A stretch of DNA of 54,858 bases from an uncultured Oligoflexia bacterium (GCA_964360145.1 CAYHWW010000004.1:1-54858), one strand, 5' to 3'; positions 33,550-51,621 are shown, numbered from the stretch's first letter. A program made the numbers and translations. Notes: generated from the sequence alone by a model not told the origin.

Positions 33550-33594
<45 letters not shown>

Positions 33595-36035: not shown

Positions 36036-36238
36036 GCAAGGACAAGATCGCCCATGACTTGCTCTTCACCTCCCATGAGCTGAATGCCCTGGCGGACCTC
36101 TTCGAGCCCTACGGCGAGCACTGCCTTTCTCGGGTGGGGGCCGAGGGCCTGGCGATCATGCTTCGTAGGATAGCGAAAAGACTGAGAAAGCATTCGATTC
36201 AGCTTGAGGAGGCAGGTCACAACCATGAAAACGAGTGA
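36032..36238 (+). CDS. small hypothetical protein
   Basis: 68 aa, ATGA-coupled to Rep gene. Confidence 0.55.
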   Translation: MSKDKIAHDLLFTSHELNALADLFEPYGEHCLSRVGAEGLAIMLRRIAKRLRKHSIQLEEAGHNHENE

Positions 36239-36350
36239 ACGCCTGGACTTCACTAAATATATTGCCCACTTACGCTATGGCTATAATTTGGCTAATATCT
36301 GGTCAAGCTGTGGTATTCCTATGCCGAAACAATATGCAGGAGTGAAAAAT

Positions 36351-37670: not shown

Positions 37671-37765
37671 GATATTTACTTATGATAGTTATGCCCAACC
37701 TCTGCAAGTAGATGGTCCGTGAACCCCAGGAACGAACACTTTCAGACGCCACCACAGGGAACCCC

Positions 37766-38725: not shown

Positions 38726-39727
38726 TCAACGCAATCCAGCTAACTTCCATCGTACGTGAAGAAAGGGCAGCAAGCGCTCTAGCGCGCTCATCTGAGCGAG
38801 GCCAGAGGAGCGTTTTAGTACCACTACGTCCTCCGGTGTCGGATAGTAGAGCGCCTCGGGATCTCTGCAGCTAGCGTAGTCGTCTGGGCCGGTGACACTA
38901 CACATGTAGTCCCACGTTAGCTGCTGGCACCTCATGGGGTTACTGCTCTCGTACACTTTCATCAAATCCTCCTGGCCCGCGTCGGCCCGCAGAGCAAATA
39001 ATCGTGAGCAAGCGCGCGCAAATTCTAGTGCGTCCGCTTTGACAATAAATCCTCCTAGACGGTATCCCTCTGGCACTTCGCCGAAGTCATCCCACCCCTC
39101 TACATAATAAGGTATTGCAGCGTCGGCAAGGCGAACCTCCGCAGCAAGTGTGTGTACTCGTTCACTGAAAATACCAGCCAGTCGATAGAAGCCATCAGAT
39201 TCAGAGACTTCACTTGACCTCTTTGTAAAAACTCTTGCGAGACCTTCATAGTACCAAACGATATCAATTGGCGGAGCACTGAACCGAGACCAGACCTCGT
39301 TTGGCTTTGAGCAGTAAAGGTCGTTCAAGATTGCACTCACGTTGTGCATCTTGTCCGCCAACGAGACAAGCAGCGATTCGGGCCGCGACTTATGCTCGAT
39401 GTGCTTAAGGTAGCGTTCTTTTCGTAATTTCCAGGGCGGCTTGGGGGTTGCGGAGGAATCAGTGCAATCAGCAACGATGGTCGAGACCCGAGTGCCAAAT
39501 TTCGTTTCTATCTGAGAAAATGTCACACCACAATCTTCGATAGTATCGTGAAGAAATGCGGCCATAGCCTGGTCTTCTGTACCGCCGTGTTCGAGCACCA
39601 AAGAGGCTACTGCCATTGGATGCGCAAGATACGGAATCGTAGTGCCCTTGCGTATCTGACCGTCATGGGCGGCGCGAGCAAACTCTAGCGCGCGGGATAA
39701 TCTTTCCGTCAATTTTGTTGTCATCAT
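38726..39727 (-). CDS. HD domain protein (RelA/SpoT-type small alarmone hydrolase-like) with C-terminal extension
   Basis: H.GQ.RKG..IPY..HP, LHDTIED, VSLADK.HN. Confidence 0.85.
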   Translation of the reverse strand: MMTTKLTERLSRALEFARAAHDGQIRKGTTIPYLAHPMAVASLVLEHGGTEDQAMAAFLHDTIEDCGVTFSQIETKFGTRVSTIVADCTDSSATPKPPWKLRKERYLKHIEHKSRPESLLVSLADKMHNVSAILNDLYCSKPNEVWSRFSAPPIDIVWYYEGLARVFTKRSSEVSESDGFYRLAGIFSERVHTLAAEVRLADAAIPYYVEGWDDFGEVPEGYRLGGFIVKADALEFARACSRLFALRADAGQEDLMKVYESSNPMRCQQLTWDYMCSVTGPDDYASCRDPEALYYPTPEDVVVLKRSSGLAQMSALERLLPFLHVRWKLAGLR

Positions 39728-39797
39728 GCCAAGTATATTAACCTAAAACGAAGCCGATTCATTATCTCTATCCAACGATAAATACTGCGCTAGTCTA

Positions 39798-40493
39798 TTA
39801 CGGCACACAAAATTCTTCAATAAAGCGAACGGCATCGGGAAAGTCATGACGCAAACGAAGCTCCGAGTACGATAAACTCGCACTAAGATCCCATCCGAGC
39901 AGACTGCAAATCGCTCTATCTACCGAGGATATCTCCTTCATCAAAGCGTCGGCATTTCGTAGGTACCAATCCCGAGCCATTTCGACTGCCTCAGTCTGAC
40001 CTGGCGTCAACGCCGTATCATCCTTATGAAAGGGCGCGCACGTACCCCATAGATCCCCTTCGATAAGGCCGTCTATTTCGTTCTGAAACGAAAGGACGTG
40101 TAGACGTACTCTGAGTAGCTGTGTCAGCGCTGTATTCCGTTTAATTGGGATGTGTCTCGAAACGTCGGACAAAACCACGCGCTCTATATACTCTGGATCA
40201 GGTAGCGCAAGGCCAGAACCAACCGAACGCAAAGCCGAGCTGTAAAAATTTGATCGGCCAGTAAGATACGGCTGCGCCCTGCCTGGAGGGTCCATCTTCT
40301 TGAGCAGTTCTTCGCGGCACTTGAGCATTGCCAGAGAAATCGCGTCGGACACGGAAAAGATGGCGTTTGCACCAAAATACGATTCAAAATCGTAATCTGT
40401 GCCACACCGCTCAACGTCAGCAGGAATCCGATCATGCTGCCACATCCGACGATTCGACGAGTACAAGATTTCACGCTGGAGACTCATCAACAT
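39798..40493 (-). CDS. hypothetical protein
   Basis: 231-aa ORF between co-oriented genes. Confidence 0.55.
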   Translation of the reverse strand: MLMSLQREILYSSNRRMWQHDRIPADVERCGTDYDFESYFGANAIFSVSDAISLAMLKCREELLKKMDPPGRAQPYLTGRSNFYSSALRSVGSGLALPDPEYIERVVLSDVSRHIPIKRNTALTQLLRVRLHVLSFQNEIDGLIEGDLWGTCAPFHKDDTALTPGQTEAVEMARDWYLRNADALMKEISSVDRAICSLLGWDLSASLSYSELRLRHDFPDAVRFIEEFCVP

Positions 40494-40541
40494 AGAGTCA
40501 TTCTCATTTTGTCTTTACCGAAATTATTTTCTTCATGGGCA

Positions 40542-41705
40542 TCATCCACGATCTTCGCATGGAGACAAACAAGTTTTATCAACATCAACGAATTGCGGTA
40601 TTTCTGGCTTGAATAAAAGCCTTATTTTTTCACATTTCCTCGAGCCATTTTTGGCAATAATCAATTCTGCAACACCAGTCTCGGATGAGTGAATATTGTA
40701 AGCCTCATCGCGATACACAAAGATCACGATGTCAGCTTCCGCCTCGATAGCGCTCGATTCCCATACCCGTAAGTCGCTGAGGGTCGGGCGTTTGTCAGTG
40801 CGATTTTCAACGTTACGGTTCAGCTGGGAAAGGGCGACCACTGGGCACCCCAGCTCTTTGGCGAGCACTTTGAGCGATCTAGAAATTTCAGATATTTCTT
40901 GTTTACGACTAGCAGCGCCTTTGGCCCCCGTCGTGCTTCCAGACATCAATTGAATATAATCAACTACCACCAGGTCGAGACGGCCTTCATCAGAGAGTAA
41001 TCTACGACATCTCCTTACAAGTTCTTCGGTAGTAAGAGCTGGACTATCATCTAAAAACAGTCGCGAAGTCGAAAGTTTGTTTGCCGCCAAGGACAGTCGT
41101 TTCCACTGCGCTTCATCCAATTTTCCCTGCGCAAGGCATTTTGCGTGAATCTCGGCAAGCTGCCCTAGAAGACGCAGCCCAAGTTCTTCCTTATCCATTT
41201 CCAAAGAAAATATCGCAGCGACATGCAGCGGGTTGCAGCTTACGAAATTTGTAATTCCAAGGGCTAACGTCGTCTTTCCCATGGCTGGGCGCGCTCCAAT
41301 TACGATAAGTTGACCGGGACAGAGCCCACCTGTGGCTTCATCCAACGTAGGCAGCCCTGTTAATAGCGCCGATACATTATCCGTGGATGCGTGGTCACTG
41401 GCAGGGGGAACAGCATCACGAATTTCGGTGAGCAACGCGCAGATCCGCTCTCGCGCACGCCTTGATTCAGACGCAGTGACCGATCCGAGGAACATCTTTG
41501 CGTCTTTCACCGTATGACGCACTTTTTCACGAAGTCCCGCCAGGATATCGACCCATCCCTCCGCGCTCGTACCGACAGTGGCGATTGCAAATGTCGTCGC
41601 GCTGGCCTTTTCGATCAGGCTACTGAGAGCATCAGAGGACAAGCCTGCAAGTTGGTGCTCAAAGGACATGGGCACGCGGGACATCTCACTCGGTTTCTTC
41701 GTCAT
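40542..41705 (-). CDS. DnaB-like helicase (C-terminal ATPase domain, atypical N-terminus)
   Basis: GARPAMGKT, FSLEM, VVDYIQLM, LSQLNR, RP.LSDLR; AGGAG RBS. Confidence 0.88.
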   Translation of the reverse strand: MTKKPSEMSRVPMSFEHQLAGLSSDALSSLIEKASATTFAIATVGTSAEGWVDILAGLREKVRHTVKDAKMFLGSVTASESRRARERICALLTEIRDAVPPASDHASTDNVSALLTGLPTLDEATGGLCPGQLIVIGARPAMGKTTLALGITNFVSCNPLHVAAIFSLEMDKEELGLRLLGQLAEIHAKCLAQGKLDEAQWKRLSLAANKLSTSRLFLDDSPALTTEELVRRCRRLLSDEGRLDLVVVDYIQLMSGSTTGAKGAASRKQEISEISRSLKVLAKELGCPVVALSQLNRNVENRTDKRPTLSDLRVWESSAIEAEADIVIFVYRDEAYNIHSSETGVAELIIAKNGSRKCEKIRLLFKPEIPQFVDVDKTCLSPCEDRG

Positions 41706-41757
41706 TTCAGTGTTCTCCTCACTATCCGGTCAATAAAGCAGCGGTCGCGTAAGATTT

Positions 41758-41789
41758 AGAGTAACCCGGCACAATGACACCTACGGTCA
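41758..41789 (-). promoter_or_regulatory. TGAC-N7-GTCA-N11-TACTCT promoter upstream of dnaB-like gene
   Basis: Same architecture seen at four sites in the island. Confidence 0.6.
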
Positions 41790-41834
41790 ACGGCAAGGTG
41801 CGTCGCCGAATAGAAAGAGCGTGCCGACATCGAT
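41762..41834. repeat. 73-bp direct repeat copy 1 (promoter module)
   Basis: Identical except 1 nt to 42475..42547. Confidence 0.92.
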
Positions 41835-41977
41835 TTTGTACGGGTGATAGCAGCTGGGACATGCGAGCACGGTCACGTGATGAAAGCCTTCGGGGCACAT
41901 ATTTCGATACTTCCTCTCCTGGGGGTTGGCCGCGCACTCATGTGCAATAACCGCAATTGGTAGTGTTAGCCGGCGGC

Positions 41978-42286
41978 TTACGGCGCAGACCCTGTTCGCT
42001 CTAACAAATCAACAAGGGTTCCCAGTACAATACGGATAGAAGCCCCCGTCTGCGGCGTGAGCGCTCTGTCAATCAGCTCGTCTTTTTGCAGCCGCTCTAT
42101 CAGCTCATAGTCGAGCTCGCCAAAACGTAGTGCAATCTGGACTTCCCAATCGACTTCCAAATTGGGCGCTAAAGCACGGATCTTAGCATCGACTTCCTTA
42201 CAATCGCCCTTGTCTGCTTGGAGCGCCTTGCGCTCAAGCGAGAGCTGCATGACTTGGTTCTTTAATTTACTTTCCAGAAACATCAT
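41978..42286 (-). CDS. hypothetical protein
   Basis: 102 aa; may be the frameshifted continuation of 42283..42453. Confidence 0.5.
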   Translation of the reverse strand: MMFLESKLKNQVMQLSLERKALQADKGDCKEVDAKIRALAPNLEVDWEVQIALRFGELDYELIERLQKDELIDRALTPQTGASIRIVLGTLVDLLERTGSAP

Positions 42287-42453
42287 CGGAAATTCATGGA
42301 AAGCTTCTGAGGCCGGAATGCCAACACTCGCCTGCCCAAAGCGCGGTCAGTGGAATAGACGAGATAAGCATCTAGCCTTGGGTGCTTCTTCTTTAAGTCC
42401 GAAAAGATCTGCTTTGCCAGCGTGTCTGCTCGACCGATGTCTTTGTACTGCAT
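42283..42453 (-). CDS. small hypothetical protein
   Basis: GGAG RBS and ATG at 42453 just downstream of the repeat promoter. Confidence 0.5.
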   Translation of the reverse strand: MQYKDIGRADTLAKQIFSDLKKKHPRLDAYLVYSTDRALGRRVLAFRPQKLSMNFR

Positions 42454-42470
42454 CTTGTACTCCGACACGC

Positions 42471-42502
42471 AGAATAACCCGGCACAATGACACCTACGGT
42501 CA
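42471..42502 (-). promoter_or_regulatory. TGAC-N7-GTCA-N11-TATTCT promoter
   Basis: Same architecture seen at four sites in the island. Confidence 0.6.
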
Positions 42503-42547
42503 ACGGCAAGGTGCGTCGCCGAAGAGAAAGAGCGTGCCGACATCGAT
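42475..42547. repeat. 73-bp direct repeat copy 2 (promoter module)
   Basis: Identical except 1 nt to 41762..41834. Confidence 0.92.
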
Positions 42548-42585
42548 AAGATCGCTTTACTCTAAGATATGGCCTAAATCGGCGC

Positions 42586-42620
42586 AATTGACGCCACACG
42601 TCAATTGATGGGGGTAAACT
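42586..42620 (+). promoter_or_regulatory. AATTGACG-N5-CGTCAATT operator plus TAAACT -10 (leaderless promoter)
   Basis: Perfect 8-bp inverted repeat; -10 ends 6 nt before ATG 42627; no RBS. Confidence 0.7.
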
Positions 42621-42626
42621 GATTAT

Positions 42627-44123
42627 ATGCAGCTCAAGAAGTCCCCTCAGCGATTCCTCAGTAAGTCCCGCATTATCAAGGGCTTACAGTGCCCCAAGGC
42701 CTTGTATTACAGCGTACATAAGCCCGAACTCGCCGAGCCCCATTCCCCCGATACCCTTGAGCGGTTTAGGCAGGGTGATGAAGTTGGCGCGGCCGCACGG
42801 GAGCATTATGGCAAAGGCGTACTCATCGAGGCGGCACCCTATGAGGTCGAGAAAGCAGTAGAACTCACCCAGGGGGCCATTAAGGCTGGAGCCAAGCGTA
42901 TTTATGAAGCTGGCTTTCTACACAATGGCGTCCAGGTTCGCGTCGATATCCTCGAACGCGACGGCAAGGGCTGGCATCTCAAGGAAGTGAAATCCAGCAA
43001 CAAGGTGAAAGATACCCACATCGACGACCTCGCCATACAGACGTACGTGGCAACAGGCGCCGGGATTACATTGAAGTCCACTTCGATTGTGCATCTCAAC
43101 AACGAATGTAAGGCACCAGACCTTTCAAACCTCTTTGAAGAAGCGCCCATAGTGGATGAGCTGAGCGCATTACAGGAAGAGCTGCCAAATACGATCAAAA
43201 GCCTCCGCGCGATAATCGCAGGTGATGCCGTCCCCAAAGTGAAGATCGGTCCGCATTGCGATGCCCCATACGAATGCGACTACAAAAAGCATTGCTTCAA
43301 GGCCGCAAAATTCCCAACAGAAGAGTCTACCGTATTTAATCTCTACTACTTCCCTAAAAAGACGGCTTGGGCACTGTACGAAAAAGGGGTCTGGAAGCCG
43401 ACAGACCCTGCCGTTTCAAAGCATAAGCTGAAGCTCCAGGCAGAACGACAGATCAAGGCCGAAAAAACAGGGACACGTTTTGTTGACAGCAAAAGCATCC
43501 AGCAAGATCTTAAAAAATGGGATTTCCCCCTGACCGTATTGGACTTTGAGACCATCGGCTTTGCCATTCCAAAATTCAAAGGAATGGGACCCAATGAACA
43601 AGCCCCCTTTCAGTTCGTGACCGCTCAGGTCAATAAACGCGGTGCTATCTCGAACATTGTTGACGTCTTAGCTACAGAGCCAGGTGATCCTCGACCTCAA
43701 ATCATTGACGGTCTTCTCAAGGCGATTCCAGAAACAGGATCTGTAGCTGCATGTTTTGCAGGATTTGAACGCGGGCGACTTCTAGAGCTCGCGGAGTTCT
43801 CACCAAAGCACGCTAAGAAAATAAAACAGATCGCTGATCGTCTAGTGGACCCACAAGAACTGATTCGAGACCATGTATACGATGCGGCATTTATGGGCTC
43901 ATTCAGTCTGAAGTACATTGCCCCGGCCTTGCTTGGTGATCGCTTTGATTACGATAAAATCGCCATAAAAAATGGCACCGATGCGCAAATGCAATACCTG
44001 CGGCTCTGCCGCGGCGAAGTGAGCGGTAAAGAGCGCGAGCAGGTCATCGCGAACCTCAAAGAATATTGCGAGCTAGACGTCATTGCCACGGCTGGGCTCG
44101 TGGCGTGGCTTTTAAAGCAGTGA
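42627..44123 (+). CDS. DUF2779-family protein: Cas4/RecB-like Fe-S PD-(D/E)xK nuclease plus RNase H-like domain
   Basis: LSKS....G.QCPK, VDIL...EVKSS, HC..PYEC....HC, LDFET, SFSLK, YCELD. Confidence 0.8.
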   Translation: MQLKKSPQRFLSKSRIIKGLQCPKALYYSVHKPELAEPHSPDTLERFRQGDEVGAAAREHYGKGVLIEAAPYEVEKAVELTQGAIKAGAKRIYEAGFLHNGVQVRVDILERDGKGWHLKEVKSSNKVKDTHIDDLAIQTYVATGAGITLKSTSIVHLNNECKAPDLSNLFEEAPIVDELSALQEELPNTIKSLRAIIAGDAVPKVKIGPHCDAPYECDYKKHCFKAAKFPTEESTVFNLYYFPKKTAWALYEKGVWKPTDPAVSKHKLKLQAERQIKAEKTGTRFVDSKSIQQDLKKWDFPLTVLDFETIGFAIPKFKGMGPNEQAPFQFVTAQVNKRGAISNIVDVLATEPGDPRPQIIDGLLKAIPETGSVAACFAGFERGRLLELAEFSPKHAKKIKQIADRLVDPQELIRDHVYDAAFMGSFSLKYIAPALLGDRFDYDKIAIKNGTDAQMQYLRLCRGEVSGKEREQVIANLKEYCELDVIATAGLVAWLLKQ

Positions 44124-44166
44124 ACTAAAGCTGCCGTTTACTGCTGAAGCATCAAGGAGTGCCTGT

Positions 44167-45375
44167 ATGGATTCCATTTCCCGTTATTTTCAAGATAACC
44201 CAGCTCTAACCAGTGTTCTGGGTTTATGGAGCGCGGCCCTTCTCACAATCGTGAGTAAGGAGATCCCAGACAGTATCTATCGGTGGATCAAGCGCCAGAT
44301 CATCGTCCAAATCCAGATCCCATGCACAGAGGATGACTTTTTTCGCATCGTGAACTGGCTGGAGTCCAAAGGATACAGCACAGGAACACGGGCCATTCGC
44401 ATCACGAGATCAAAAGTTACAGCCGGAGTGGGCATTCACTACTTCATCCACGAGGGGCGTCTCTTTGTCATGACGCGCAGAAAAGAGGACAATAAGCTCT
44501 CGTACAGAATCAGGGAAGAAATCGAGATTCAAACCTTTGGACGCAGCCAAGCACCACTGCGCAGGCTCATAGAAGCGATCCGACACTTTGAAAATGGTGA
44601 AACTACAATCATCAGCCACTGGATTTCTGAAGCCTGGGTGCGGCTCAATGCTCAGCCTATTCGCAGGCTGAATACGGTCTTTATCCCTGATGAAAACAAG
44701 CAACTGATCCATGACAGCATGAAGCGCTTTCTCGAAGCGCGTTCATGGTACCTCATGCACGGAATACCGTATCGTACGGGGTACTGCTTCTATGGACCGC
44801 CAGGAACAGGGAAGACCACGTTGGCCCGTGCCATCTGTGGTGAGTTCAACCTCAGGCTCTACATTCTGAACCTTTCGAGCTTCACAGACGCAACATTCAG
44901 CGAGGCCCTAGCCAACGTTGAACCTGGTTCGGTAGTTCTCATAGAGGACATCGATTGTTTTCACGAGTCCTGGGTACGTGACTCAGCCAATAGCGGACAA
45001 ATCTACAAACCGTCGAAAGACTCCCTCACATTATCGGGGCTGCTGAATGGCATCGATGGCGCAACCTGCTCTGATGGCACCGTCTTCATCTACACTACGA
45101 ACAGGCTAGAAATGATCGACCCAGCCCTGCTGCGCCCCGGTCGCGTGGACCATGTGCTCTATGTGGGGGCACACACACCCGAGACCTTCGCCCAGGCGAT
45201 GGCGGCATACTATCCCGGCTTTGCAGTCCCAGAGGAGGTGGCCCTGGGGGCAGGTCTGACCCCTGCCCAGCTCCAGCAGCAGGTCATGGTCCACAGGGGT
45301 GATCCACAGGCGGTGCTGCAGGCACTCCGCAACGCAAGAGAGACCAGGGCCAAGTCCTCGGATTTTTGGCATTAA
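44167..45375 (+). CDS. BCS1-like membrane-anchored AAA+ ATPase
   Basis: N-terminal TM, WY...GIPYR.GY..YGPPGTGKT, LIEDID, LTLSGLLN.IDG, TTN...DPALLRPGR.D. Confidence 0.85.
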   Translation: MDSISRYFQDNPALTSVLGLWSAALLTIVSKEIPDSIYRWIKRQIIVQIQIPCTEDDFFRIVNWLESKGYSTGTRAIRITRSKVTAGVGIHYFIHEGRLFVMTRRKEDNKLSYRIREEIEIQTFGRSQAPLRRLIEAIRHFENGETTIISHWISEAWVRLNAQPIRRLNTVFIPDENKQLIHDSMKRFLEARSWYLMHGIPYRTGYCFYGPPGTGKTTLARAICGEFNLRLYILNLSSFTDATFSEALANVEPGSVVLIEDIDCFHESWVRDSANSGQIYKPSKDSLTLSGLLNGIDGATCSDGTVFIYTTNRLEMIDPALLRPGRVDHVLYVGAHTPETFAQAMAAYYPGFAVPEEVALGAGLTPAQLQQQVMVHRGDPQAVLQALRNARETRAKSSDFWH

Positions 45376-45450
45376 TTCGAGGCCCTTTGAATGAAAAACT
45401 CATCAAGTAGTCGGCAGAAAATGCCGAAGAGAGGCCATCGAGGGAAGTCT

Positions 45451-46479
45451 ATGTCCATTGGTCACGGCACGCGGAAGGCCGAGCGCCTCATGCGCATTAT
45501 TCAGATTCTAGAAGGCGCACCCCACGGCCTCAGCGTCCAGGACCTTCACAAGCGCCTCTTCTCTGGCGAAAAGGGCGTGAGCCTGCGCAGCATATACCGT
45601 GATCTCGAAGCACTCAGTAGTTGCGGCCACCCTCTGGTAAAGGACGGTGGCAGCGGAGAAGATGAGCGCGGTGGCCTGTGGCGACTCGAAGGTTCGAGAC
45701 GCATTGGCCATACTCTTCAGATCACGCCTAGAGAACTCATGGGCCTTTTCCTGGCCCGCAGTGCCTTAGAGCCTCTACGTGATACTTACTTCTACAGCGA
45801 CATTGCTTCGATTTTTAAAAAGATCGAAGCGCGACTCGGCGTGAAGAGTGTTGAATACCTGCAAGAGCTCGGGGAGCAGATGCATTTTCAGCCTCTTCCC
45901 AAGTGGGGTCTTGGCGTGAGCCCTGATGTTCTCGATACCATTCATGCTGCCTGCGCAGAGGGACACATTATTGAAGCTGACTACGAGTCGGCACACAATC
46001 AGCAGCGCCGAAAGAGACGGCTAGGGCCACACTATCTGTATTTCTCACGCGGGGCCCTATACCTTGTCGCTGAAGATATAGAATCAAGCCAAATTAAAGT
46101 GTACGCGCTTCCACGGTTCCACGCTGCATTCATGACGGAGGAGGCTTATGAGGGCGAAAAATCAGACCCGCAGCGCCTTTTTGCAGGATCGTTTGGGGTG
46201 TTCACCGGAGAATCTCAGCGCGTGCGCATCGAGTTCCATCCGGAGATTGCACCCTATATCCGTGAGCGCAGTTGGCATCCAAGTCAGCGCGTCGTCGCGC
46301 ATGACGATGGGCGGGTAACAGTGGAGTTTCATGTTGGGATTACACCAGAGTTTTTCCAGTGGGTGCTGGGGTTTGGCAGCCGCGCTCTCGTCATTGAGCC
46401 CGCTAGCCTGCAAGAACGCCTGAGAACCGCAGCCGAATGCATACTAAGGCAGTACAACGATAAGGGGAGGGCAGCGTAA
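45451..46479 (+). CDS. WYL-domain transcriptional regulator (wHTH-WYL-WCX)
   Basis: VS.RSIYRDL..L, R.R..P......GALYLVA, E..WHPSQ, WVLGFG....VIEP..L. Confidence 0.92.
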   Translation: MSIGHGTRKAERLMRIIQILEGAPHGLSVQDLHKRLFSGEKGVSLRSIYRDLEALSSCGHPLVKDGGSGEDERGGLWRLEGSRRIGHTLQITPRELMGLFLARSALEPLRDTYFYSDIASIFKKIEARLGVKSVEYLQELGEQMHFQPLPKWGLGVSPDVLDTIHAACAEGHIIEADYESAHNQQRRKRRLGPHYLYFSRGALYLVAEDIESSQIKVYALPRFHAAFMTEEAYEGEKSDPQRLFAGSFGVFTGESQRVRIEFHPEIAPYIRERSWHPSQRVVAHDDGRVTVEFHVGITPEFFQWVLGFGSRALVIEPASLQERLRTAAECILRQYNDKGRAA

Positions 46480-47399
46480 TGACGCTCATAGATACCGAAA
46501 TGAAACCAAAGAACGAGCCCACGCTCTGGCGAGTAAATGTGATACGCGACATCAAATTCTTTGATTACATAAAAACTAAAAAAGAAATCGGAATGGGTTG
46601 GGCTACCAAGACGGCAACCAAAGATCTCAAAGCCTTTTTGGCTGAAGCGAAATCGACGTTTCAAAATCCAAAAGATTATTCTCGTTGTAAAAGAGCACTC
46701 AATAGGTTTGCCCTTAAAATGAAAATAGATGATCTTTGCTGGACCCGAGATCCCGGACCAAACGGTAGCTACTACCTTCTTCGCATCATTGGTGATTGGG
46801 AGCACACAACTGACTGCTATCACATTGCAGCAGATCTCGTGAACATCAGAAAGTCCATTTGGTTGCCCGTGGGTCCGGTGGGCGCCGTTCCCGGAGCCGT
46901 AGCCAATAGTTTTTCGCGCGGCGGTACGATCCAGCGGATTTGTGATCCTTCAGCATTGCAATATTCGAAGCTCATATGGAACGGGCAACAACCGCAGCAA
47001 GCCTATCCCTTGGAACCTGGAGGTTTGGATATTCTAAATCTCGTCTCGCATGAGGATCTTGAAGATATCGTAGGACTCTACTTACAGGCTCAGGGTTGGC
47101 TTATGATACCCAGTACAGCAAAAGGCAAGAACACTAAGGCTCACGAGTATCAGCTGATTCATAGGACCAGTCAGAACGGCGCACTTGTTCAAGTAAAAAC
47201 CAAAGAAAATATTAATGCGCAGTCGATCCTGCATGACGGCTTAGAATTATTCTTATTTACGATGGGCCAGGTCCACGGGCTATCAAAGCGGGTCACTGTC
47301 ATTTCGCCTGCCAAGATTAAGGCGTTTATAATAGAAAACCCCAGTCTTCAGTCCCCACGGGTGAAAGAATGGATGAAGTACTTCGAACTTCAAAATTGA
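46479..47399 (+). CDS. putative Mrr-like (modification-dependent) endonuclease
   Basis: IGMGW and MKIDDL.W N-terminal domain; C-terminal EDIV..YLQ..GW...E..L...VQVK nuclease-like motif. Confidence 0.5.
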   Translation: MTLIDTEMKPKNEPTLWRVNVIRDIKFFDYIKTKKEIGMGWATKTATKDLKAFLAEAKSTFQNPKDYSRCKRALNRFALKMKIDDLCWTRDPGPNGSYYLLRIIGDWEHTTDCYHIAADLVNIRKSIWLPVGPVGAVPGAVANSFSRGGTIQRICDPSALQYSKLIWNGQQPQQAYPLEPGGLDILNLVSHEDLEDIVGLYLQAQGWLMIPSTAKGKNTKAHEYQLIHRTSQNGALVQVKTKENINAQSILHDGLELFLFTMGQVHGLSKRVTVISPAKIKAFIIENPSLQSPRVKEWMKYFELQN

Positions 47400-47452
47400 A
47401 ACACTCTCAGTCCGTGGACGAACAGAAACGATAATTCATAGATTAGAATCCC

Positions 47453-47602
47453 ATGGCCATCCAACATGACCACGTGAGTCCGATTATCATTGAGCAGCTG
47501 ACGTCAACCTTTGGCCTCCTCCCTCACCCCGAATGGGGCTACTTCAAAGAGACCTACGGGCGACGGAGCAAACTGCACAGGGCGCACTGCCAGCATGATT
47601 AA
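47453..47602 (+). pseudogene. N-terminal fragment of cupin (DUF985-like) protein
   Basis: L.PHPE.GYFKETY motif then immediate loss of similarity. Confidence 0.6.
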
Positions 47603-48603
47603 GCCGCTTTCTGCGCTATCTTTGAGCTCACGCGCTCAAGGGATTTCGAAATAGTAGCATTCGCAGACTCATAGCGTTTCAATGCATGCGCCCTAAATTC
47701 TTGAGACGCAAGGTACTTAGCAAGGTCCGTAAGCTGCTGTGACACAGGAACGTCAGTCTTCAAGTGCTTATTGACGTATATGACCAAGACAAATGCTGGC
47801 ACCGCCCCCAGAATCAAAGGGCCTGGTATAATTGCACTGACGGCAAGGCCTGTGGCGTTCAATAATCCGCCGCGTAGAATACTCTGTTTGTCGATCATGC
47901 AGCGATTGTAGCCAATGCCCAAGCCGACAACTGCAATAATAGCTGTAACCGGATTCATCGCAACCACTGAGCTTAAACCAATGGAACCCAGTGCCTTCGA
48001 GAAGTTTTTCTTGTCGCTGTCACGCCACGAAAACACTAGAGCCAGTGTAGTCAGCGTGCCGGAGAGAAGTGCATCAAAGGCTTCTTGGCCATTAACGGTG
48101 ACCAGGTCGCGTGCGGTTGCCTCGCTGATTCCAACGCCACGAAGCATCGCATACACATTGTCTGAGAGTTCTGAGATGGGCATGCCTGCTGGTGAGGAAA
48201 GGTCAGAGAGATACGCCTCAGCCCACTGCTTGAATGAATCGATACCACCGAGCCCTTGCTGCTCACCAATCTCAAAAGCGCGGCTCAGACTTTCACTAAC
48301 CGTATGCCCACCATCAAGTATGCGATGATTTGATGGCGTCATGGCGACCCCTTCGATCGCGCCCTTCGCCTTGTCCAAAAAGCCCTGGTCCATCGCTCTA
48401 GTCACTTCGTTAGAAAGCGAGTTTAGTGAGCGCCCCCATTCAGAATCTGCAATGATCGTCGCGATGTCTGTTGTCAGACCTGTCGTCGCAATCCATGCTC
48501 CCTTGGCTTTCTCTGCGGCTTTCTTGGATGCATCCCTGAGGCGATCGATGTTTTTTTGCGAGGCAATGTCGCCTACAATTGAGCGTAGCGTACGTTTGGC
48601 CAT
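47599..48603 (-). CDS. hypothetical membrane protein
   Basis: About 334 aa with several C-terminal Gly/Ala-rich hydrophobic helices. Confidence 0.65.
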   Translation of the reverse strand: MAKRTLRSIVGDIASQKNIDRLRDASKKAAEKAKGAWIATTGLTTDIATIIADSEWGRSLNSLSNEVTRAMDQGFLDKAKGAIEGVAMTPSNHRILDGGHTVSESLSRAFEIGEQQGLGGIDSFKQWAEAYLSDLSSPAGMPISELSDNVYAMLRGVGISEATARDLVTVNGQEAFDALLSGTLTTLALVFSWRDSDKKNFSKALGSIGLSSVVAMNPVTAIIAVVGLGIGYNRCMIDKQSILRGGLLNATGLAVSAIIPGPLILGAVPAFVLVIYVNKHLKTDVPVSQQLTDLAKYLASQEFRAHALKRYESANATISKSLERVSSKIAQKAA

Positions 48604-48680
48604 GAAGACATGTCGGCACAATAACTACATTTTTTGAGCCAAAACGCCGATCTCTGACTTATTAGTGACCGCGGCGCCAG

Positions 48681-48715
48681 AATTGACGCCACATGTCAAC
48701 TTTTGGGGGTAAACC
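48681..48715 (+). promoter_or_regulatory. TGAC-N7-GTCA-N11-TAAACC promoter (homolog of 42586 site)
   Basis: AATTGACGCCACATGTCAAC; -10 ends 6 nt before ATG 48722. Confidence 0.65.
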
Positions 48716-48721
48716 ACTCCC

Positions 48722-48958
48722 ATGAAGTTGAAGATGGCACCCAAAATATTCCTTAGTAAGGCCCGCATTATCGAGGGCTTACAATGCCATAAGGCACTTT
48801 ATTACACCGTCCATAGACCCGAGCATCTGAAACGGGTCAAGCTCATGTCCAATACTATTGGGGCAACGAGTCAGCCCCTCAATGACTTCCATAGGTTCTT
48901 AACCTCAAGAAGTTACACAAATGAAGCCTGGGGCTATAAATGGCCGATACCGAAATAA
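48722..48958 (+). pseudogene. truncated 5' end of a second DUF2779-family gene
   Basis: FLSKARIIEGLQCHKALYYTVHRPE matches aa 10-34 of 42627..44123, then diverges. Confidence 0.85.
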
Positions 48959-49848
48959 TGCCGTTACCACATCGTCATCTAGGCATGCTTTATGGTTTGC
49001 ATGCTGGAGATGCATTGGGCGCCACACTAGAGTTCTGTGAGCCAAATGATCACCCCGACACTCACAGAGAAATGCTCGGCGGCGGTCATTTTAACTGGTC
49101 CCCAGGCGCAGCTACTGACGACACTGACCTCATGCTGTGCGTTCTAAGCGAGCTAGCTGAAGGCAATCGCTTCGATACAGAATCCTTGGCACGCAGATTT
49201 GTTAAATGGCTCGCTACCGGGCCGGTGGACGTTGGCGCAACTACACGCCGCGCCATTGTGCGTATGAAGGCCGGGGTACCTTCAACCAACACCGGGGCCA
49301 GTGACGAATACTCACAGGGCAACGGTTCTCTAATGCGGTGCGCCCCACTGGCCCTTCTAGAGACTGACGAGCGAAGCTTGGGAGTCGTGATTGACCAGCA
49401 AGCATCGATGACGCATGCACATCGTACCTGCATTACTTCCGATTACTTGTTGGTGATGGCAATTCGGGATGCATTCTGCGGCGCACACAAAAATGCGATT
49501 TATCTCAACACTCTAAATCGTTCGCGAGTGAGAAGTGCAGAAATTCACGCGCGGCTTGAGGCACTGCCAGATATCCCGTGGCATGAATTAAGCTGCAGCG
49601 GGTATGTGATTGACACCCTCTGTGCAGCCTTTTGGGCATTGATGCATGCGAGTAGTTTTGAGGAATCCCTGATTAAAGTTGTAAACAGAGGAATGGATGC
49701 TGACACCTGCGGTGCAGTAACCGGCGCACTTTGCGGCGCATACTACGGCTTGGAGCGCATGCCAAAGAGATGGCTACAGGCGCTCGAAAAGGCGGAGGAG
49801 ATACAGCGCCTGTATCTGTTAATACGTGCGAGGAAAAATGGGCAATAA
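48940..49848 (+). CDS. ADP-ribosylglycohydrolase (DraG/ARH family)
   Basis: GDALGA, TDDT, GNGSLMR, DADTCGAVTGAL.GA. Confidence 0.93.
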   Translation: MADTEIMPLPHRHLGMLYGLHAGDALGATLEFCEPNDHPDTHREMLGGGHFNWSPGAATDDTDLMLCVLSELAEGNRFDTESLARRFVKWLATGPVDVGATTRRAIVRMKAGVPSTNTGASDEYSQGNGSLMRCAPLALLETDERSLGVVIDQQASMTHAHRTCITSDYLLVMAIRDAFCGAHKNAIYLNTLNRSRVRSAEIHARLEALPDIPWHELSCSGYVIDTLCAAFWALMHASSFEESLIKVVNRGMDADTCGAVTGALCGAYYGLERMPKRWLQALEKAEEIQRLYLLIRARKNGQ

Positions 49849-49925
49849 ACAAGCTGGATCCAATCAATGCCCATTTGACCTGCTCGAATAGAATGTCAAG
49901 ATGATGATGCGACGAAAAGGACACA

Positions 49926-50351
49926 ATGACTTTGAAAAAAATTGCGCCAAAAGCACTAGAAAAAAAGCCCTGTACACACCTTGCGGGCGAGTTTTTTGTC
50001 GCGGCTGAGCTTTCTCGGCGCGGTTACAACGTCGCTATGACGATGGGCAACGCAAAAAAAGTCGATCTTGTCGTCGAGAATGATGGCAGCACCTTACCAA
50101 TTCAAGTTAAAGCACTCGCAAAAAAACAAAATGTCGGTTGGCCACTTAAGCCAGGGCAGTCGTATGGTAAGGATCTCATCTTCGTACTCGTTGTCTTGGG
50201 TGAACCTGGAACTCAACCTGACTACTTTATCGTAAGTGGAGACATCGTCCAAAAACGTCGCAAAGACTACGACACCAGGGGCATTCTCGACATCAATCGA
50301 GTCGGGGAGTTTAAAGACAATTGGCGTTTAATCGAGAGGCGAATCGGATGA
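49926..50351 (+). CDS. small PD-(D/E)xK nuclease-like protein
   Basis: AGE..VAAEL.RRG, VDL.V, IQVK. Confidence 0.7.
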   Translation: MTLKKIAPKALEKKPCTHLAGEFFVAAELSRRGYNVAMTMGNAKKVDLVVENDGSTLPIQVKALAKKQNVGWPLKPGQSYGKDLIFVLVVLGEPGTQPDYFIVSGDIVQKRRKDYDTRGILDINRVGEFKDNWRLIERRIG

Positions 50352-50956
50352 AGAAGAAAAACAGCGCAGCTTCGCTCAAGGCCAAGTATAAATATAAACG
50401 GCTCAGCAAGAGGCCCCTCATAAAGATGGGGACCAGCATCAGGCGTGGGTCTTCTCTGCGAATTCAGTTTAAGGATACAATCACCGAAGCAGATATCGAA
50501 AACGCCTTAAAGATTCTTGGGATGACAGCTAAGGACATTCGCTGTGTATATTGTGGAAATAAAGCAACAACATGGGACCACTTTTACGGTTTGGTGAAAG
50601 ACAAAGAGCCCAGAATTCGCTCCTCTTCAATCTATAATTTTGTGCCATGCTGTCATCGCTGCAATTTCACCCGCGGAACCGAGTCATGGGAAGAATGGAT
50701 AGATGCCCTGAAGAGCAGAGGTGCCTGGTGGGGAATTCAAAAAACGGAAAATAAACGCCTAGCGCGACTACGAAAGTATCAAAATAAATCTCGCCGCATT
50801 AAGGATCTCAGTCCAACAAAGGTATTCAAAAAAGACACTTGGAATCAGTATAAAAATATTTGCGAGAGGGTCATCAAACTGCTTAAAGAAGCTGACACAG
50901 TAGCGAGCAAACTCGATCAACAACTAGAACAGTGGATCTTACGTTCCGCGCTTTGA
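50348..50956 (+). CDS. HNH endonuclease
   Basis: CVYCG...WDH...N.VPCCHRCN. Confidence 0.85.
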   Translation: MKKKNSAASLKAKYKYKRLSKRPLIKMGTSIRRGSSLRIQFKDTITEADIENALKILGMTAKDIRCVYCGNKATTWDHFYGLVKDKEPRIRSSSIYNFVPCCHRCNFTRGTESWEEWIDALKSRGAWWGIQKTENKRLARLRKYQNKSRRIKDLSPTKVFKKDTWNQYKNICERVIKLLKEADTVASKLDQQLEQWILRSAL

Positions 50957-51235
50957 CGACGCGAGTCTTTTTGAATTTCCAGGGTCTTCTTGCTGCGGCG
51001 TAATAAGTGTGAATTTTGAGCCTATTTCCAGCAGTTCTTGGATGACTGGAGTTCACAAGCAGGCCATGGCCTGCAAGCGCAGCGTTGCCCTCTTCGTGAT
51101 CTGAGTAAACCGCTCAGGCGGGGACTTGCGATAAGGTCTGGTTATCACCAAAGGCTTTTGGATTTTTTTGCCTAGCGGCGAACTGCTGACAACCGATGCG
51201 TCTGGTCAGCTGCTCCTCGTCAATGTGGGGTGGTT

Positions 51236-51530
51236 GGGACGATGTACATTTGAAGACTATGACTTCACGACGAAGCGCTCACTCACGAAGGCCCAGCTCA
51301 AAGAGATCGCAAGCCTCGGGTGGCTCCATGAGGGGCGTCCCCTCGTCCTCATCGGCCAGACTGGCGTGGGGAAGACCTTCCTTGGGCAAGCGACCGGGCT
51401 CCATGCCTGTGCGCACAGGAAATCGGCGCTCTTTCTCTCGGTGACCCACTGGATGGAGCAGCAGGCGTTCACCCGGGCGACGGGGACCTACCTCAAGTTC
51501 CGGGAGAAAATGATCCGGCCCGACCTTCGT
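51236..51530 (+). pseudogene. istB: IS21-family IstB ATPase fragment
   Basis: FEDYDF...R, L..L.W, LIGQTGVGKTFL.QA.G..AC; truncated at PDL before Walker B. Confidence 0.8.
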
Positions 51531-51621
51531 GTCCTTCCGGCAAACGTGCGTATCTTGACGGAAGGACACGGCATTCAGTGTCATTTAAGAACGGAGTTTG
51601 ACCTGTATTTTCACGCAGACA

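What the first reader, a model, noticed from the sequence alone, without database searches (positions are those of the whole stretch)
41758..48722. Candidate WYL regulon: four promoters share TGAC-N7-GTCA-N11-TAnnn(T/C)
Seen directly: the palindrome TGAC-N7-GTCA occurs at 41775-41789, 42488-42502, 42589-42603 and 48684-48698. In all four cases a -10-like hexamer follows exactly 11 nt later in the direction of the downstream gene (TACTCT, TATTCT, TAAACT, TAAACC). The four sites fall into two pairs with unrelated flanks and different N7 spacers, so duplication alone does not explain the shared geometry. No canonical -35 sits at 17-nt spacing. Established: WYL regulators (PafBC, DriD, BrxR/CapW) bind short inverted repeats and sense ssDNA/nucleic acids, and PafBC activates by binding just upstream of the -10 in place of a normal -35. 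Inference: the WYL protein at 45451 controls an inducible island regulon comprising the DUF2779/BCS1 operon, the dnaB-like/HD operon, two small ORFs and the ARH/nuclease operon.
Basis: partly seen in the sequence, partly recalled or inferred. Interest (0 to 1): 0.85.

Follow-up and report, generated by a model that had tools for sequence, protein, structure and literature searches.

The report
DriD-like WYL regulon of an island
Four promoters in a low-GC genomic island share a binding box that also sits beside relatives of the island's own WYL regulator in dozens of other genomes, with the spacing known for the DNA-damage activator DriD, so one sensor probably switches the island's helicase and nuclease genes on together.

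Summary
TGAC-N7-GTCA followed 11 nt later by a TAnnn(T/C) hexamer occurs at 41775, 42488, 42589 and 48684. The four sites are two duplicated promoter lineages, not four independent events.

- Among 157 loci encoding relatives of the island's HTH-WYL-WCX protein, TGAC-N7-GTCA is the top non-A/T dyad upstream of the gene. There are 32 sites in 29 loci against 27 in the 22-fold larger remainder.
- In 30 of 49 TG[AT]C-N7-G[AT]CA sites, TAnnnT lies exactly 11 nt away.
- In another genus, a WYL + DUF2779 island repeats the multi-promoter layout, including box-N11-(-10)-N6-ATG.
- The family is closest to DriD by profile and by fold and keeps DriD's two guanine-reading arginines.
- DriD's box is CGAC-N7-GTCG. 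I read the same N11 spacing from DriD's published promoter oligonucleotides.

Best reading: a DriD-type activator with positive autoregulation, more DriD-like than PafBC-like. A CapW/BrxR-style repressor role is not excluded. There are no expression data. Verdict: a new variant of a known kind.

The parts
41775..41789 (-). WYL box A1 (TGAC-N7-GTCA). On the minus strand it is followed by N11 and TACTCT (41763-41758). It is the promoter for the DnaB-like/unknown/HD genes.
42488..42502 (-). WYL box A2, a 97% copy of A1. On the minus strand it is followed by N11 and TATTCT (42476-42471), then 17 nt containing GGAG, then the ATG at 42453 of the 56-aa ORF.
42589..42603 (+). WYL box B1. It is followed by N11, TAAACT (42615-42620) and 6 nt before the ATG at 42627 of the DUF2779 gene, which predicts a leaderless mRNA.
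48684..48698 (+). WYL box B2, a diverged copy of B1. It is followed by N11, TAAACC (48710-48715) and 6 nt before the ATG at 48722.
41758..41834 (.). The 77-nt direct repeat (the other copy is 42471-42547, 97% identical). It runs from the last base of the -10 hexamer to 45 nt upstream of the box, so it is a duplicated promoter cassette.
42586..42727 (+). The 142-nt repeat (the other copy is 48681-48822, 76% identical). It contains the box, the -10, the ATG and about 33 codons of the DUF2779 5' end.
38726..41705 (-). Putative operon under A1: DnaB_C helicase (40542-41705), a 231-aa protein with no family match (39798-40493) and an HD_4 phosphohydrolase (38726-39727).
   Evidence: Pfam; PHROGs. 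Co-transcription is inferred from gaps of 48 and 70 nt.
41978..42453 (-). Two small overlapping ORFs under A2 (56 aa and 102 aa). Neither has a family match.
42627..47399 (+). Putative operon under B1: DUF2779 with a Cas4-like nuclease region (42627-44123), a BCS1_N + AAA ATPase (44167-45375), the HTH_11-WYL-WCX regulator (45451-46479; the ORF is open from 45391) and a PDC-S02 defence-candidate protein (46479-47399).
   Evidence: Pfam, PADLOC, PHROGs, gene start. Co-transcription is inferred.
48722..50956 (+). Putative operon under B2: a 78-aa ORF whose first ~36 residues copy the DUF2779 N-terminus (48722-48958), an ADP-ribosylglycohydrolase (48940-49848), a PD-(D/E)XK-like protein (49926-50351) and an HNH-like protein (50348-50956).
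43618..43632 (.). A fifth TGAC-N7-GTCA inside the DUF2779 coding sequence with no -10 at N11. It is probably chance. The hybrid dyad at 50523, inside the HNH-like coding sequence, is read the same way.

Best explanation
The island-encoded wHTH-3HB-WYL-WCX protein (45451-46479) binds as a dimer to the four TGAC-N7-GTCA boxes. Each box covers the place where a -35 element would lie. Its downstream half-site ends exactly 11 nt before a weak -10 hexamer.

As with Caulobacter DriD, the ligand-bound regulator would help RNA polymerase use promoters that have no -35. The ligand is most likely single-stranded DNA made during DNA damage or phage or plasmid attack.

Four transcription units would then switch on together:
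- the DnaB-like helicase/HD unit;
- two small ORFs;
- DUF2779-BCS1-like ATPase-WYL-PDC-S02, which would give positive autoregulation;
- the ADP-ribosylglycohydrolase/nuclease unit.

Two of these units are predicted to be leaderless mRNAs.

Shown here: the boxes, their geometry, their conservation beside WYL homologues, and the likeness of the protein to DriD. Inferred: binding itself, the sign of regulation, the ligand, and the operon extents.
For: 1. Operator conservation.
- In 157 loci encoding relatives, the window from -400 to +20 of the WYL gene holds 32 exact TGAC-N7-GTCA sites in 29 loci, within 63.5 kb. The remaining 1375 kb holds 27.
- In an unbiased count of all 4-mer dyads with spacers of 3-11, it is the top non-A/T dyad.
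- With the symmetric variant TGTC-N7-GACA and hybrids included, 45 of 157 loci carry a site. Six of the 8 closest relatives with upstream sequence (42-46% identity) do so.

2. Geometry.
- TAnnnT lies exactly 11 nt from the dyad in 30 of 49 sites on the side away from the WYL gene. No other offset has more than 5. Six of 49 have it on the side towards the gene.
- After merging near-identical contexts, 27 of 45 clusters keep it.

3. An independent island.
- Only 2 of 29 DUF2779 loci from the phylum have a dyad-N11-hexamer right upstream.
- Those two genomes, from one genus, were the only 2 of 5 tested in which a WYL homologue was found. It lies about 3.5 kb upstream.
- Each of the two islands has 5 dyads in 14 kb. 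Several are box-N11-CATACT/CATAAT/AATACT-N6-ATG, the same layout as B1 and B2.

4. Neighbours. DUF2779 follows the WYL gene in L001 and L005. ARH lies divergent from it in L025, L105, L127, L129 and L137, together with ARPP-1 in L105.

5. The protein.
- Pfam finds HTH_11 + WYL + WCX.
- The family profile hits DriD (8TP8, 9PFQ) over its full length at 1.3e-19. PafC scores 3.7e-13, BrxR 1.5e-3 and CapW 5.5e-3.
- The AF2 model (pLDDT 85.8) shows wHTH, three helices, a WYL beta domain and WCX. Its best Foldseek hits are DriD at 1e-17.
- DriD Arg37 and Arg41, which read G2 and the G opposite C4, align with invariant or near-invariant R46 and R50. Glu40, which reads C1, is an invariant Tyr here, which fits T at position 1.

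6. DriD precedent.
- Its box ATACGAC(X)7GTCGTAT overlaps the -35 position at a fixed distance from the -10, and its promoters lack a -35.
- From the oligonucleotides printed in that paper I read GTCG/GGCG-N11-CAAnnn in the driD, didA and bapE promoters.

7. Protein-DNA covariation. The residue just before the recognition-helix Arg is Trp in 9 of 13 TGTC/GACA loci. It is Trp in none of the 27 loci that have only TGAC/GTCA dyads and a helix that my pattern recognised.

8. This protein is the only HTH-WYL gene found in the 95%-complete assembly. The other WYL hit is an exonuclease-WYL fusion.

9. The four promoters have no -35 and no TGn extended -10, so they look dependent on an activator.
Against: - There is no binding, transcript-start or expression evidence. 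No RNA run was listed.
- The four sites are only two independent lineages.
- The 8-base dyad is at chance frequency genome-wide: 50 found, 49.5 expected. At other dyad-to-hexamer offsets the genome gives 0-7 hits to the strict pattern, so the count of 4 at N11 is unremarkable. Only the location of the hits is.
- 112 of 157 homologue loci have no dyad within -400..+20. That includes all 31 loci of a subgroup with a CV/T-R/K-RTVYRDLDA helix and the close relatives L005 and L081.
- In the more distant relatives, 21 of the 30 N11 promoters have a TGn extended -10. Such promoters could fire without an activator, which would favour repression there.
- WYL regulators described so far beside defence genes (BrxR, CapW) are repressors.
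- The loci were fetched with peptide patterns that include the recognition helix, and many are kin, so the counts overstate independence.
- The N11 value for DriD is my own reading of the oligonucleotides and of the paper's 'optimised -35' construct. Its Fig. 4C and supplements were not visible, so the value could be off by one.
- DriD's ssDNA contact Arg207 is not conserved.
- The WYL homologue in G053 has two in-frame stops.
Confidence: 0.6

Rival explanations
1. The same protein binds the same boxes but acts as a repressor in the manner of CapW or BrxR. Bound to the -35 region it keeps RNA polymerase off the promoters. Binding of ssDNA or another ligand releases it, and the island genes are derepressed.
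For: - WYL regulators found next to defence genes (BrxR, CapW) are repressors (passages; abstracts).
- The island carries defence-type genes: a PDC-S02 match at 1e-66, a Cas4-like nuclease, ARH, PD-(D/E)XK and HNH.
- In the more distant relatives, 21 of 30 N11 promoters have a TGn extended -10 that needs no -35.
- A box spanning about -38 to -24 could occlude the polymerase.
Against: - The family is far closer to DriD and PafBC than to BrxR or CapW, both by profile (1e-19 against 1e-3) and by fold search (1e-17 against 7e-9 and 2e-8).
- The BrxR operator is two 11-bp arms with a 5-bp spacer placed downstream of the promoter, which is a different design.
- An exact spacing to the -10 kept across diverged flanks is what a stereospecific contact with the polymerase predicts. 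Simple occlusion would tolerate variation.
- The window's four promoters have no -35 and no TGn, so they should be weak without help.
Confidence: 0.27
2. The boxes are real regulatory sites, but another DNA-binding protein reads them. Candidates are an island Xre-type protein, a MerR-like factor that uses TTGAC as a -35 with an over-long spacer, or a chromosomal regulator. The WYL protein would have a different target.
For: - The upstream half-site plus one base (TTGACC/TTGACG) is a 5-of-6 match to a -35 hexamer. It lies 21 nt from the -10-like hexamer.
- Elsewhere in the genome, TTGAC-N7-GTCAA palindromes sit at ordinary TTGACA-N17 promoters.
- The WYL gene is 2.8 kb from the nearest box.
Against: - The only constant neighbour of the dyad across 45 loci is the WYL gene. 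The divergent genes vary: a small conserved protein, ARPP-1/ARH, sigma-54 and others.
- The residue before the recognition-helix Arg covaries with half-site position 3.
- The two guanine-reading arginines of DriD are kept and match G2 and C4 of the box.
- No MerR-family gene was seen among the island ORFs scanned.
- A 21-nt spacer is longer than MerR-type promoters use. That last point is recalled, not tested here.
Confidence: 0.06
3. There is no shared regulation. Two promoter cassettes were each duplicated, and their common 8-base dyad and spacing are coincidence.
For: - Only two independent lineages exist.
- The dyad is at chance density in the genome.
- The motif was picked after looking at the sequence.
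Against: - The motif and spacing were fixed before the test on 160 other loci. There the dyad is about 25-fold enriched upstream of WYL genes, and the hexamer falls at N11 in 30 of 49 sites.
- A second WYL + DUF2779 island has 5 such boxes.
Confidence: 0.03

Closest known systems
DriD (Caulobacter crescentus WYL activator of the SOS-independent damage response)
   Same: - Same domain order: wHTH, three-helix bundle, WYL, WCX.
- Best PDB match by profile and by fold.
- A palindromic box with a GAC-N7-GTC core.
- The box overlaps the position where a -35 would lie.
- My reading of its promoter oligonucleotides gives 11 nt between the 4-bp half-site core and the -10.
- Both base-reading arginines are kept.
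- A box in front of the regulator's own transcription unit.
   Different: - Only about 20% identity.
- The outer base of the half-site is T..A rather than C..G, and Glu40 is replaced by Tyr.
- The targets are genes of a low-GC island (helicase, nucleases, AAA ATPase, ARH), not chromosomal repair and division genes.
- Two promoters are predicted to be leaderless.
- The promoter cassettes are duplicated within the island.
- ssDNA sensing was not tested.
DdaA (Moraxellaceae WYL activator of damage-response and anti-phage genes)
   Same: - A related box, CGWCA-N5-TGWCG, which is GWC-N7-GWC with A/T allowed at the third position. The TGAC and TGTC variants here vary at the same position.
- An activator that links damage sensing to defence genes.
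   Different: - The DdaA box is reported about 50 bp upstream of transcript starts. The boxes here overlap the -35 position.
- DdaA is a chromosomal global regulator.
- No sequence comparison with DdaA was made here.
PafBC
   Same: - Promoters without a functional -35 (passage). The abstract describes sigma adaptation.
- Second-best structural and profile match.
   Different: - PafBC is a heterodimer.
BrxR / CapW (WYL repressors of BREX, CBASS and other defence islands)
   Same: An HTH-WYL-WCX dimer encoded within a defence-type island and controlling adjacent defence genes. CapW senses ssDNA (abstract).
   Different: - They are repressors.
- The BrxR operator has 11-bp arms and a 5-bp spacer and lies downstream of the promoter.
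- They are much weaker matches to this family (1.5e-3 and 5.5e-3; 7e-9 and 2e-8).
SiwR (Mycobacterium smegmatis WYL activator)
   Same: A homodimeric WYL activator with a palindrome inside the promoter of a divergent target operon.
   Different: Its 19-bp palindrome spans the region between -35 and -10. Its targets are DinB-like genes. It was not compared by sequence here.

Membership tests
HTH-WYL-WCX transcription factors (class of DriD, PafBC, BrxR, CapW) | N-terminal winged HTH, central WYL domain and C-terminal WCX dimerisation domain | tested here: met
   - Pfam: HTH_11 2.6e-6, WYL 5.2e-12, WCX 1.6e-19.
- AF2 model with pLDDT 85.8 has matching secondary structure.
DriD-like activators | Closer to DriD than to other characterised WYL regulators | tested here: met
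   - Profile against PDB: DriD 1.3e-19 over the full length, PafC 3.7e-13, PafB 5.5e-8, BrxR 1.5e-3, CapW 5.5e-3.
- Foldseek: DriD 1e-17, PafBC 2.4e-15, BrxR 7e-9, CapW 1.9e-8.
- TM-scores are low (about 0.28) because the domain arrangement differs.
DriD-like activators | Three-helix bundle between the wHTH and WYL domains | tested here: met
   Helices 93-105, 113-127 and 131-143 in the AF2 model. The domain names come from the DriD paper passages.
DriD-like activators | Recognition-helix arginines that read G2 and the G opposite C4 of each half-site | tested here: met
   DriD R37 and R41 align to R46 (invariant) and R50 (at least 90% conserved) of the family. The window protein reads RSIYR.
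DriD-like activators | Pseudo-palindromic box with 4-bp cores separated by 7 bp | tested here: met
   TG[AT]C-N7-G[AT]CA is enriched upstream of homologues. The DriD box is CGAC-N7-GTCG. Binding itself was not tested.
DriD-like activators | Box overlaps the -35 position at a fixed distance from the -10, and promoters lack a -35 | tested here: met
   - N11 at all 4 window sites.
- N11 in 30 of 49 sites away from the WYL gene and 6 of 49 towards it in homologue loci.
- No canonical promoter at the sites.
- The DriD geometry comes from passages and oligonucleotides. The figure was not seen.
DriD-like activators | ssDNA bound in the WYL/WCX pocket switches on DNA binding and activation | not testable with these tools
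   In the alignment:
- Y168, S172, R178 and Y192 are kept.
- R189 and R204 are kept as basic residues.
- W206 is kept as an aromatic residue.
- R207 is not kept.
DriD-like activators | Raises, rather than lowers, transcription of its targets | not testable with these tools
   No RNA run was listed. The claim rests on promoter weakness and geometry alone.
BrxR/CapW defence repressors | Long inverted repeats (10-11 bp arms, 5-bp spacer) placed to block the promoter | tested here: not met
   The boxes here have 4-6 bp arms and a 7-bp spacer, and they lie upstream of the -10.
PADLOC PDC-S02 defence candidate (gene 46479-47399) | Match to the PDC-S02 model | tested here: met
   1.1e-66 over 293 of 299 model positions. 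The model is a candidate system only. No function is known, and the ten papers that contain the term (nine listed) were seen as a search listing only.

The most novel reading that the evidence does not exclude
A DriD-type ssDNA-sensing activator has been taken over by a mobile island. One alarm signal would switch on the island's own replication helicase module together with several nuclease, ATPase and ADP-ribose conflict modules, partly through leaderless transcripts.

The unit 'WYL box + -10 (+ ATG)' would itself be a portable promoter cassette that is copied in front of new cargo. The evidence for that is the 77-nt and 142-nt duplications here, the duplicated promoter in L001, and the 5 boxes in each island of another genus.

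This would make the TG[AT]C-N7-G[AT]CA clade a widespread, activator-driven counterpart of the BrxR/CapW repressor logic.
Probability: 0.3. Interest if true: 0.75.

Novelty: new variant of a known kind. Interest (0 to 1): 0.66.

Why it matters
Defence islands controlled by WYL proteins are so far known through repressors (BrxR, CapW). DriD-type activation is structurally understood only for chromosomal damage genes of Caulobacter.

This work gives a concrete operator, TG[AT]C-N7-G[AT]CA, placed 11 nt before the -10. It applies to an uncharacterised clade of WYL regulators found in MAGs labelled Oligoflexales, Bdellovibrionales, Desulfobacterales and others. It also suggests a specificity rule: Tyr in place of DriD Glu40 goes with T at half-site position 1, and Trp before the helix Arg goes with T at position 3.

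The operator lets regulons be predicted from sequence alone. It also names four promoters and one protein that could be tested directly in a heterologous host. If activation is confirmed, it would show that mobile or defence islands can use the DriD mechanism, with leaderless targets.

Tried and rejected
- Expression evidence. The look-up of sequencing runs on 41400-49000 listed no RNA holder. This says nothing about expression.
- Genome-wide regulon. No convincing site exists outside the island. The C47 and C131 hits to the relaxed pattern are probably chance. A scan of the window allowing one mismatch gave 12 hits in all, the five exact ones above plus seven one-mismatch hits, none upstream of another island gene start.
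- Other TTGAC-N7-GTCAA palindromes in the genome. The two on contig C2 turned out to be ordinary TTGACA-N17 promoters with palindromic spacers, upstream of ORFs with no family match. I do not count them as WYL sites.
- The second WYL gene, on C71, is a DnaQ-like exonuclease-WYL fusion without an HTH. It is not a rival regulator.
- The subgroup of 31 loci with a CV/T-R/K-RTVYRDLDA helix has no shared dyad upstream of the gene. Its operator, if there is one, was not found.
- Phage origin. Only one weak relative (21% identity) was found in viral contigs. The best plasmid hits are at most 29.5% identical.
- Small ORFs 56 aa and 102 aa, p231 and p340 have no Pfam or PHROG family. They are unrelated to the small conserved protein encoded divergently from WYL genes in the more distant relatives.
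- Terminator and promoter scans gave nothing above shuffled expectation.
- Literature. Searches for DUF2779 (7 papers, listing only), PDC-S02 (listing only) and the motif strings TGAC-N7-GTCA, TGACN7GTCA, 'TGAC N7 GTCA', TGTC-N7-GACA and GAC-N7-GTC (one unrelated paper) found no description of this box or regulon in the held library. Supplements and figures of the DriD papers were not visible and may bear on the N11 value. These include the promoter alignment in Fig. 4C and the supplementary promoter figures.

Full report
**What is in the sequence**

TGAC-N7-GTCA occurs five times in the window, at 41775, 42488, 42589, 43618 and 48684. Shuffles gave 0.66 on average, and none of 100 reached five.

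At four of the five sites a hexamer TAnnn(T/C) follows exactly 11 nt later on the side of the adjacent gene:
- TACTCT and TATTCT on the minus strand;
- TAAACT and TAAACC on the plus strand.

The fifth site (43618) is inside the DUF2779 coding sequence and has no such hexamer.

The four sites are two duplicated cassettes.
- The first is a 77-nt repeat (41758-41834 and 42471-42547, 97% identical). It runs from the last base of the -10 hexamer to 45 nt upstream of the box.
- The second is a 142-nt repeat (42586-42727 and 48681-48822, 76% identical). It starts a few bases before the box and continues through the ATG and about 33 codons of the DUF2779 gene.
- The 78-aa ORF at 48722 is therefore a remnant of a DUF2779 5' end now placed in front of the ADP-ribosylglycohydrolase gene.

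The sample, however, is two independent promoters and not four.

**Chance**

In the whole 3.65-Mb assembly the 8-base dyad is at its expected frequency: 50 found, 49.5 expected. The dyad alone proves nothing.

The notable point is the clustering. Five of the 50 dyads lie within 7 kb. Of 7 genome-wide hits to the full pattern TG[AT]C-N7-G[AT]CA-N11-TAnnn[TC], five are in this island. All four hits to the strict TAnnnT form are in the island.

A consensus scan finds no ordinary sigma-70 promoter at the four intergenic sites. There is no -35 at 17 nt and no TGn extended -10.

**Genes**

- Minus strand: a DnaB_C helicase, a protein with no family match and an HD_4 phosphohydrolase.
- Minus strand: two small ORFs with no family match.
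- Plus strand: DUF2779 with a Cas4-like region, a BCS1_N + AAA ATPase, an HTH_11-WYL-WCX protein and a PDC-S02 defence candidate (1e-66).
- Plus strand: the DUF2779 remnant, an ADP-ribosylglycohydrolase (ARH), a PD-(D/E)XK-like protein and an HNH-like protein.

The region from about 28 to 52 kb has 50-53% G+C against 58% for the genome. It also carries a ScaI-type restriction-modification pair, HicB, ParA, a Phage_rep_O-like protein and an Xre/RES/Macro cluster. I read it as a horizontally acquired island with replication, addiction and defence functions.

The only other WYL gene in the assembly is an exonuclease-WYL fusion without an HTH.

**The test on other genomes**

I aligned 36 relatives of the WYL protein. 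They are at most 49% identical and mostly come from MAGs labelled Oligoflexales, Bdellovibrionales or 'Deltaproteobacteria'. With that alignment I fetched 80 loci from genomes and 80 from metagenomes. In 157 of them there is sequence upstream of the gene.

Results:
- The window from -400 to +20 (63.5 kb in all) holds 32 exact TGAC-N7-GTCA sites in 29 loci. The other 1375 kb holds 27. That is about 25-fold enrichment.
- When every 4-mer dyad with spacers of 3 to 11 is counted, this one is the top dyad apart from A/T runs. The next ones, TGTG-N11 and GTGA-N9, are the same palindrome read in a wider register, TGTGAC-N7-GTCACA.
- A symmetric variant, TGTC-N7-GACA, and hybrids also occur. In all, 45 of 157 loci carry a TG[AT]C-N7-G[AT]CA site, 49 sites in total.
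- Against the reading: 112 loci have none. That includes all 31 loci of a subgroup with a CV/T-R/K-RTVYRDLDA helix, whose WYL gene closely follows another gene, and two of the eight closest relatives (L005, L081).

**The spacing is conserved too**

For the 49 sites I counted TAnnnT at every offset from 0 to 29.
- On the side facing away from the WYL gene, offset 11 has 30 hits and every other offset has at most 5.
- On the side facing the gene, offset 11 has 6 hits.
- After merging contexts that are at least 80% identical, 45 distinct contexts remain, and 27 of them have the N11 hexamer.

The 11 intervening bases differ widely between loci, so the distance is held by selection and not by recent descent alone.

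In the more distant relatives, those labelled Desulfobacterales or 'Deltaproteobacteria', the divergent promoter mostly has a TGn extended -10 (21 of 30). It leads, after a leader of about 60 nt, to a small conserved protein of unknown function. In other loci it leads to ARPP-1 + ARH (L105), sigma-54 (L113) or other genes.

The only constant partner of the box is the WYL gene.

**A second island of the same design**

DUF2779 proteins are common in the phylum: 91 of 401 genomes, counting the window's own. Of 29 further loci fetched, only two have a dyad right upstream. They are the two closest homologues and come from one genus. The site reads TGTC-N7-GACA-N11-TATAAG.

I then searched five genomes for the WYL protein. 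It was found only in those two, about 3.5 kb upstream of DUF2779 on the same strand. It was not found in the three genomes whose DUF2779 gene lacks the dyad. In one of the two genomes the WYL gene has two in-frame stops.

The 14-kb regions around them each contain five dyads. Several read box-N11-CATACT/CATAAT/AATACT-N6-ATG.

The closest relatives also have several boxes per locus: L002 has four, L003 and L004 have three each, and L001 has a duplicated promoter.

Gene neighbours recur as well. DUF2779 follows the WYL gene in L001 and L005. ARH is divergent from it in L025, L105, L127, L129 and L137.

**What the protein is like**

- The family profile matches DriD (8TP8, 9PFQ) over its whole length at 1.3e-19. 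PafC follows at 3.7e-13, PafB at 5.5e-8, BrxR at 1.5e-3 and CapW at 5.5e-3. The PDB codes were checked against the papers.
- An AlphaFold model (pLDDT 85.8, pTM 0.43) shows a winged HTH, three helices, a beta-rich WYL domain and a C-terminal domain.
- Its best Foldseek hits are DriD chains at 1e-17, then PafBC, then BrxR and CapW. TM-scores are low because the domain packing differs.

In DriD, Arg37 reads G2, Arg41 reads the G opposite C4, and Glu40 contacts C1 of the half-site CGAC (passages). In the alignment these positions are invariant R46, near-invariant R50 and invariant Y49 of this family. The window protein reads RSIYR. Keeping both arginines fits nGnC. Replacing Glu by Tyr fits the change of the first base from C to T.

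There is also protein-DNA covariation. The residue just before the first arginine is Trp in 9 of 13 loci with TGTC/GACA boxes. It is Trp in none of the 27 loci that have only TGAC/GTCA boxes and a helix my pattern found. These loci are kin, so this may reflect only a few evolutionary events.

Several ssDNA contacts of DriD are kept or conservatively replaced (Y168, S172, R178, R189, Y192, R204, W206). R207 is not kept.

**Comparison of mechanisms**

From passages of the 2026 DriD paper:
- DriD binds ATACGAC(X)7GTCGTAT.
- The site overlaps the place where a -35 would be.
- Those promoters lack a recognisable -35.

The Methods print the promoter oligonucleotides and an 'optimised -35' version. 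From these I read 17 nt between the inserted TTGACA and CAATCT. That gives GTCG-N11-CAATCT in the driD promoter, GGCG-N11-CAAGGT in didA and GGCG-N11-CAAGCC in bapE. This is the geometry of the window sites. The value is my own derivation, because the figure and supplements were not visible.

- DdaA of Moraxellaceae binds CGWCA-N5-TGWCG. Its authors relate this to DriD's CGAC-N7-GTCG, but the DdaA box lies about 50 bp upstream of transcript starts.
- BrxR binds 11-bp arms with a 5-bp spacer downstream of its promoter and represses.
- SiwR uses a 19-bp palindrome between -35 and -10.

**Verdict**

I put about 0.6 on activation in the DriD manner and 0.27 on repression.

For activation:
- the family's likeness to DriD and PafBC;
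- the exact spacing;
- the weakness of the four promoters.

For repression:
- the defence-island setting, where known WYL proteins are repressors;
- the extended -10 elements in distant relatives.

Membership of the individual genes in the four transcription units rests on short gaps only.

No paper in the held library describes this box, this clade or a DUF2779/WYL regulon. I rate it a new variant of a known kind.

Noticed in passing
window 27382-29033: An N6/N4 DNA methylase (27382-28416, +) and a ScaI-family restriction endonuclease (28389-29033, -) form a convergent, overlapping type II restriction-modification pair at the low-GC edge of the island.
   Followed up: no
window 33172-38305: HicB antitoxin (33172-33513), ParA-type ATPase (33976-34848), Phage_rep_O-like protein (34845-36035), Xre-like antitoxin (36204-36743) + RES domain (36744-37670) and a Macro-domain protein (37712-38305). 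Together with the DnaB-like helicase these suggest a plasmid-like or integrated replicon with addiction modules. No integrase or tRNA was seen in the window, but 1-27 kb was not annotated.
   Followed up: partly
window 41790-41834 and 42503-42547: The 45 nt upstream of boxes A1 and A2, which lie inside the 77-nt repeat, contain an imperfect direct repeat (GCGTCGCCGA / GCGTGCCGAC on the plus strand). Its role is unknown. It could be a second regulator's site or an UP-like element.
   Followed up: no
window 51168-51650: A 160-aa ORF matches only the middle of IstB_IS21 (model positions 62-159 of 238). It is probably a remnant of an IS21 helper gene near the right edge of the low-GC region.
   Followed up: no
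G000 contig C71:794-1747 (-): The only other WYL-domain gene of the assembly has no HTH. I read its N-terminal part as a DnaQ-like 3'-5' exonuclease by eye, with no family search. That would make it a WYL-fused enzyme and not a regulator.
   Followed up: partly
L009, L013, L085, L101, L128 and others (e.g. L128:117-287, -): In WYL loci labelled Desulfobacterales or 'Deltaproteobacteria', the box-N11-(-10) promoter points to a conserved protein of about 56 aa. It contains CYEYHGNTTIELTR..WRDWI.FDTV.EAA.YF and has no Pfam family. It appears to be the commonest target of this regulator clade.
   Followed up: partly
L191:3077-3316 (+) (G037): A 79-aa stand-alone HTH_11 protein, with an RTLYRD helix, lies between a WYL box and the full-length WYL gene. 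It may be a truncated paralogue that competes for the same boxes.
   Followed up: no
L001-L160, recognition helix of WYL homologues: The residue before the helix Arg covaries with the box. Trp goes with TGTC/GACA (9 of 13 loci) and T/S/R/P/Q/H-type residues go with TGAC/GTCA. This is a candidate specificity determinant.
   Followed up: partly
G000 contig C2:69599 and 70577 (L193:2100 and 3078): Two TTGAC-N7-GTCAA palindromes lie 1 kb apart. Each coincides with a canonical TTGACA-N17 promoter upstream of ORFs with no family match. The second is a 10-bp-arm palindrome. They are probably the operator of another regulator and not WYL sites.
   Followed up: partly
L105:717-2684 (-), L106: ARPP-1 followed by ADP-ribosylglycohydrolase forms the operon divergent from a WYL homologue. 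This links the regulator clade to ADP-ribose conflict systems, as with the ARH gene at 48940 here.
   Followed up: partly
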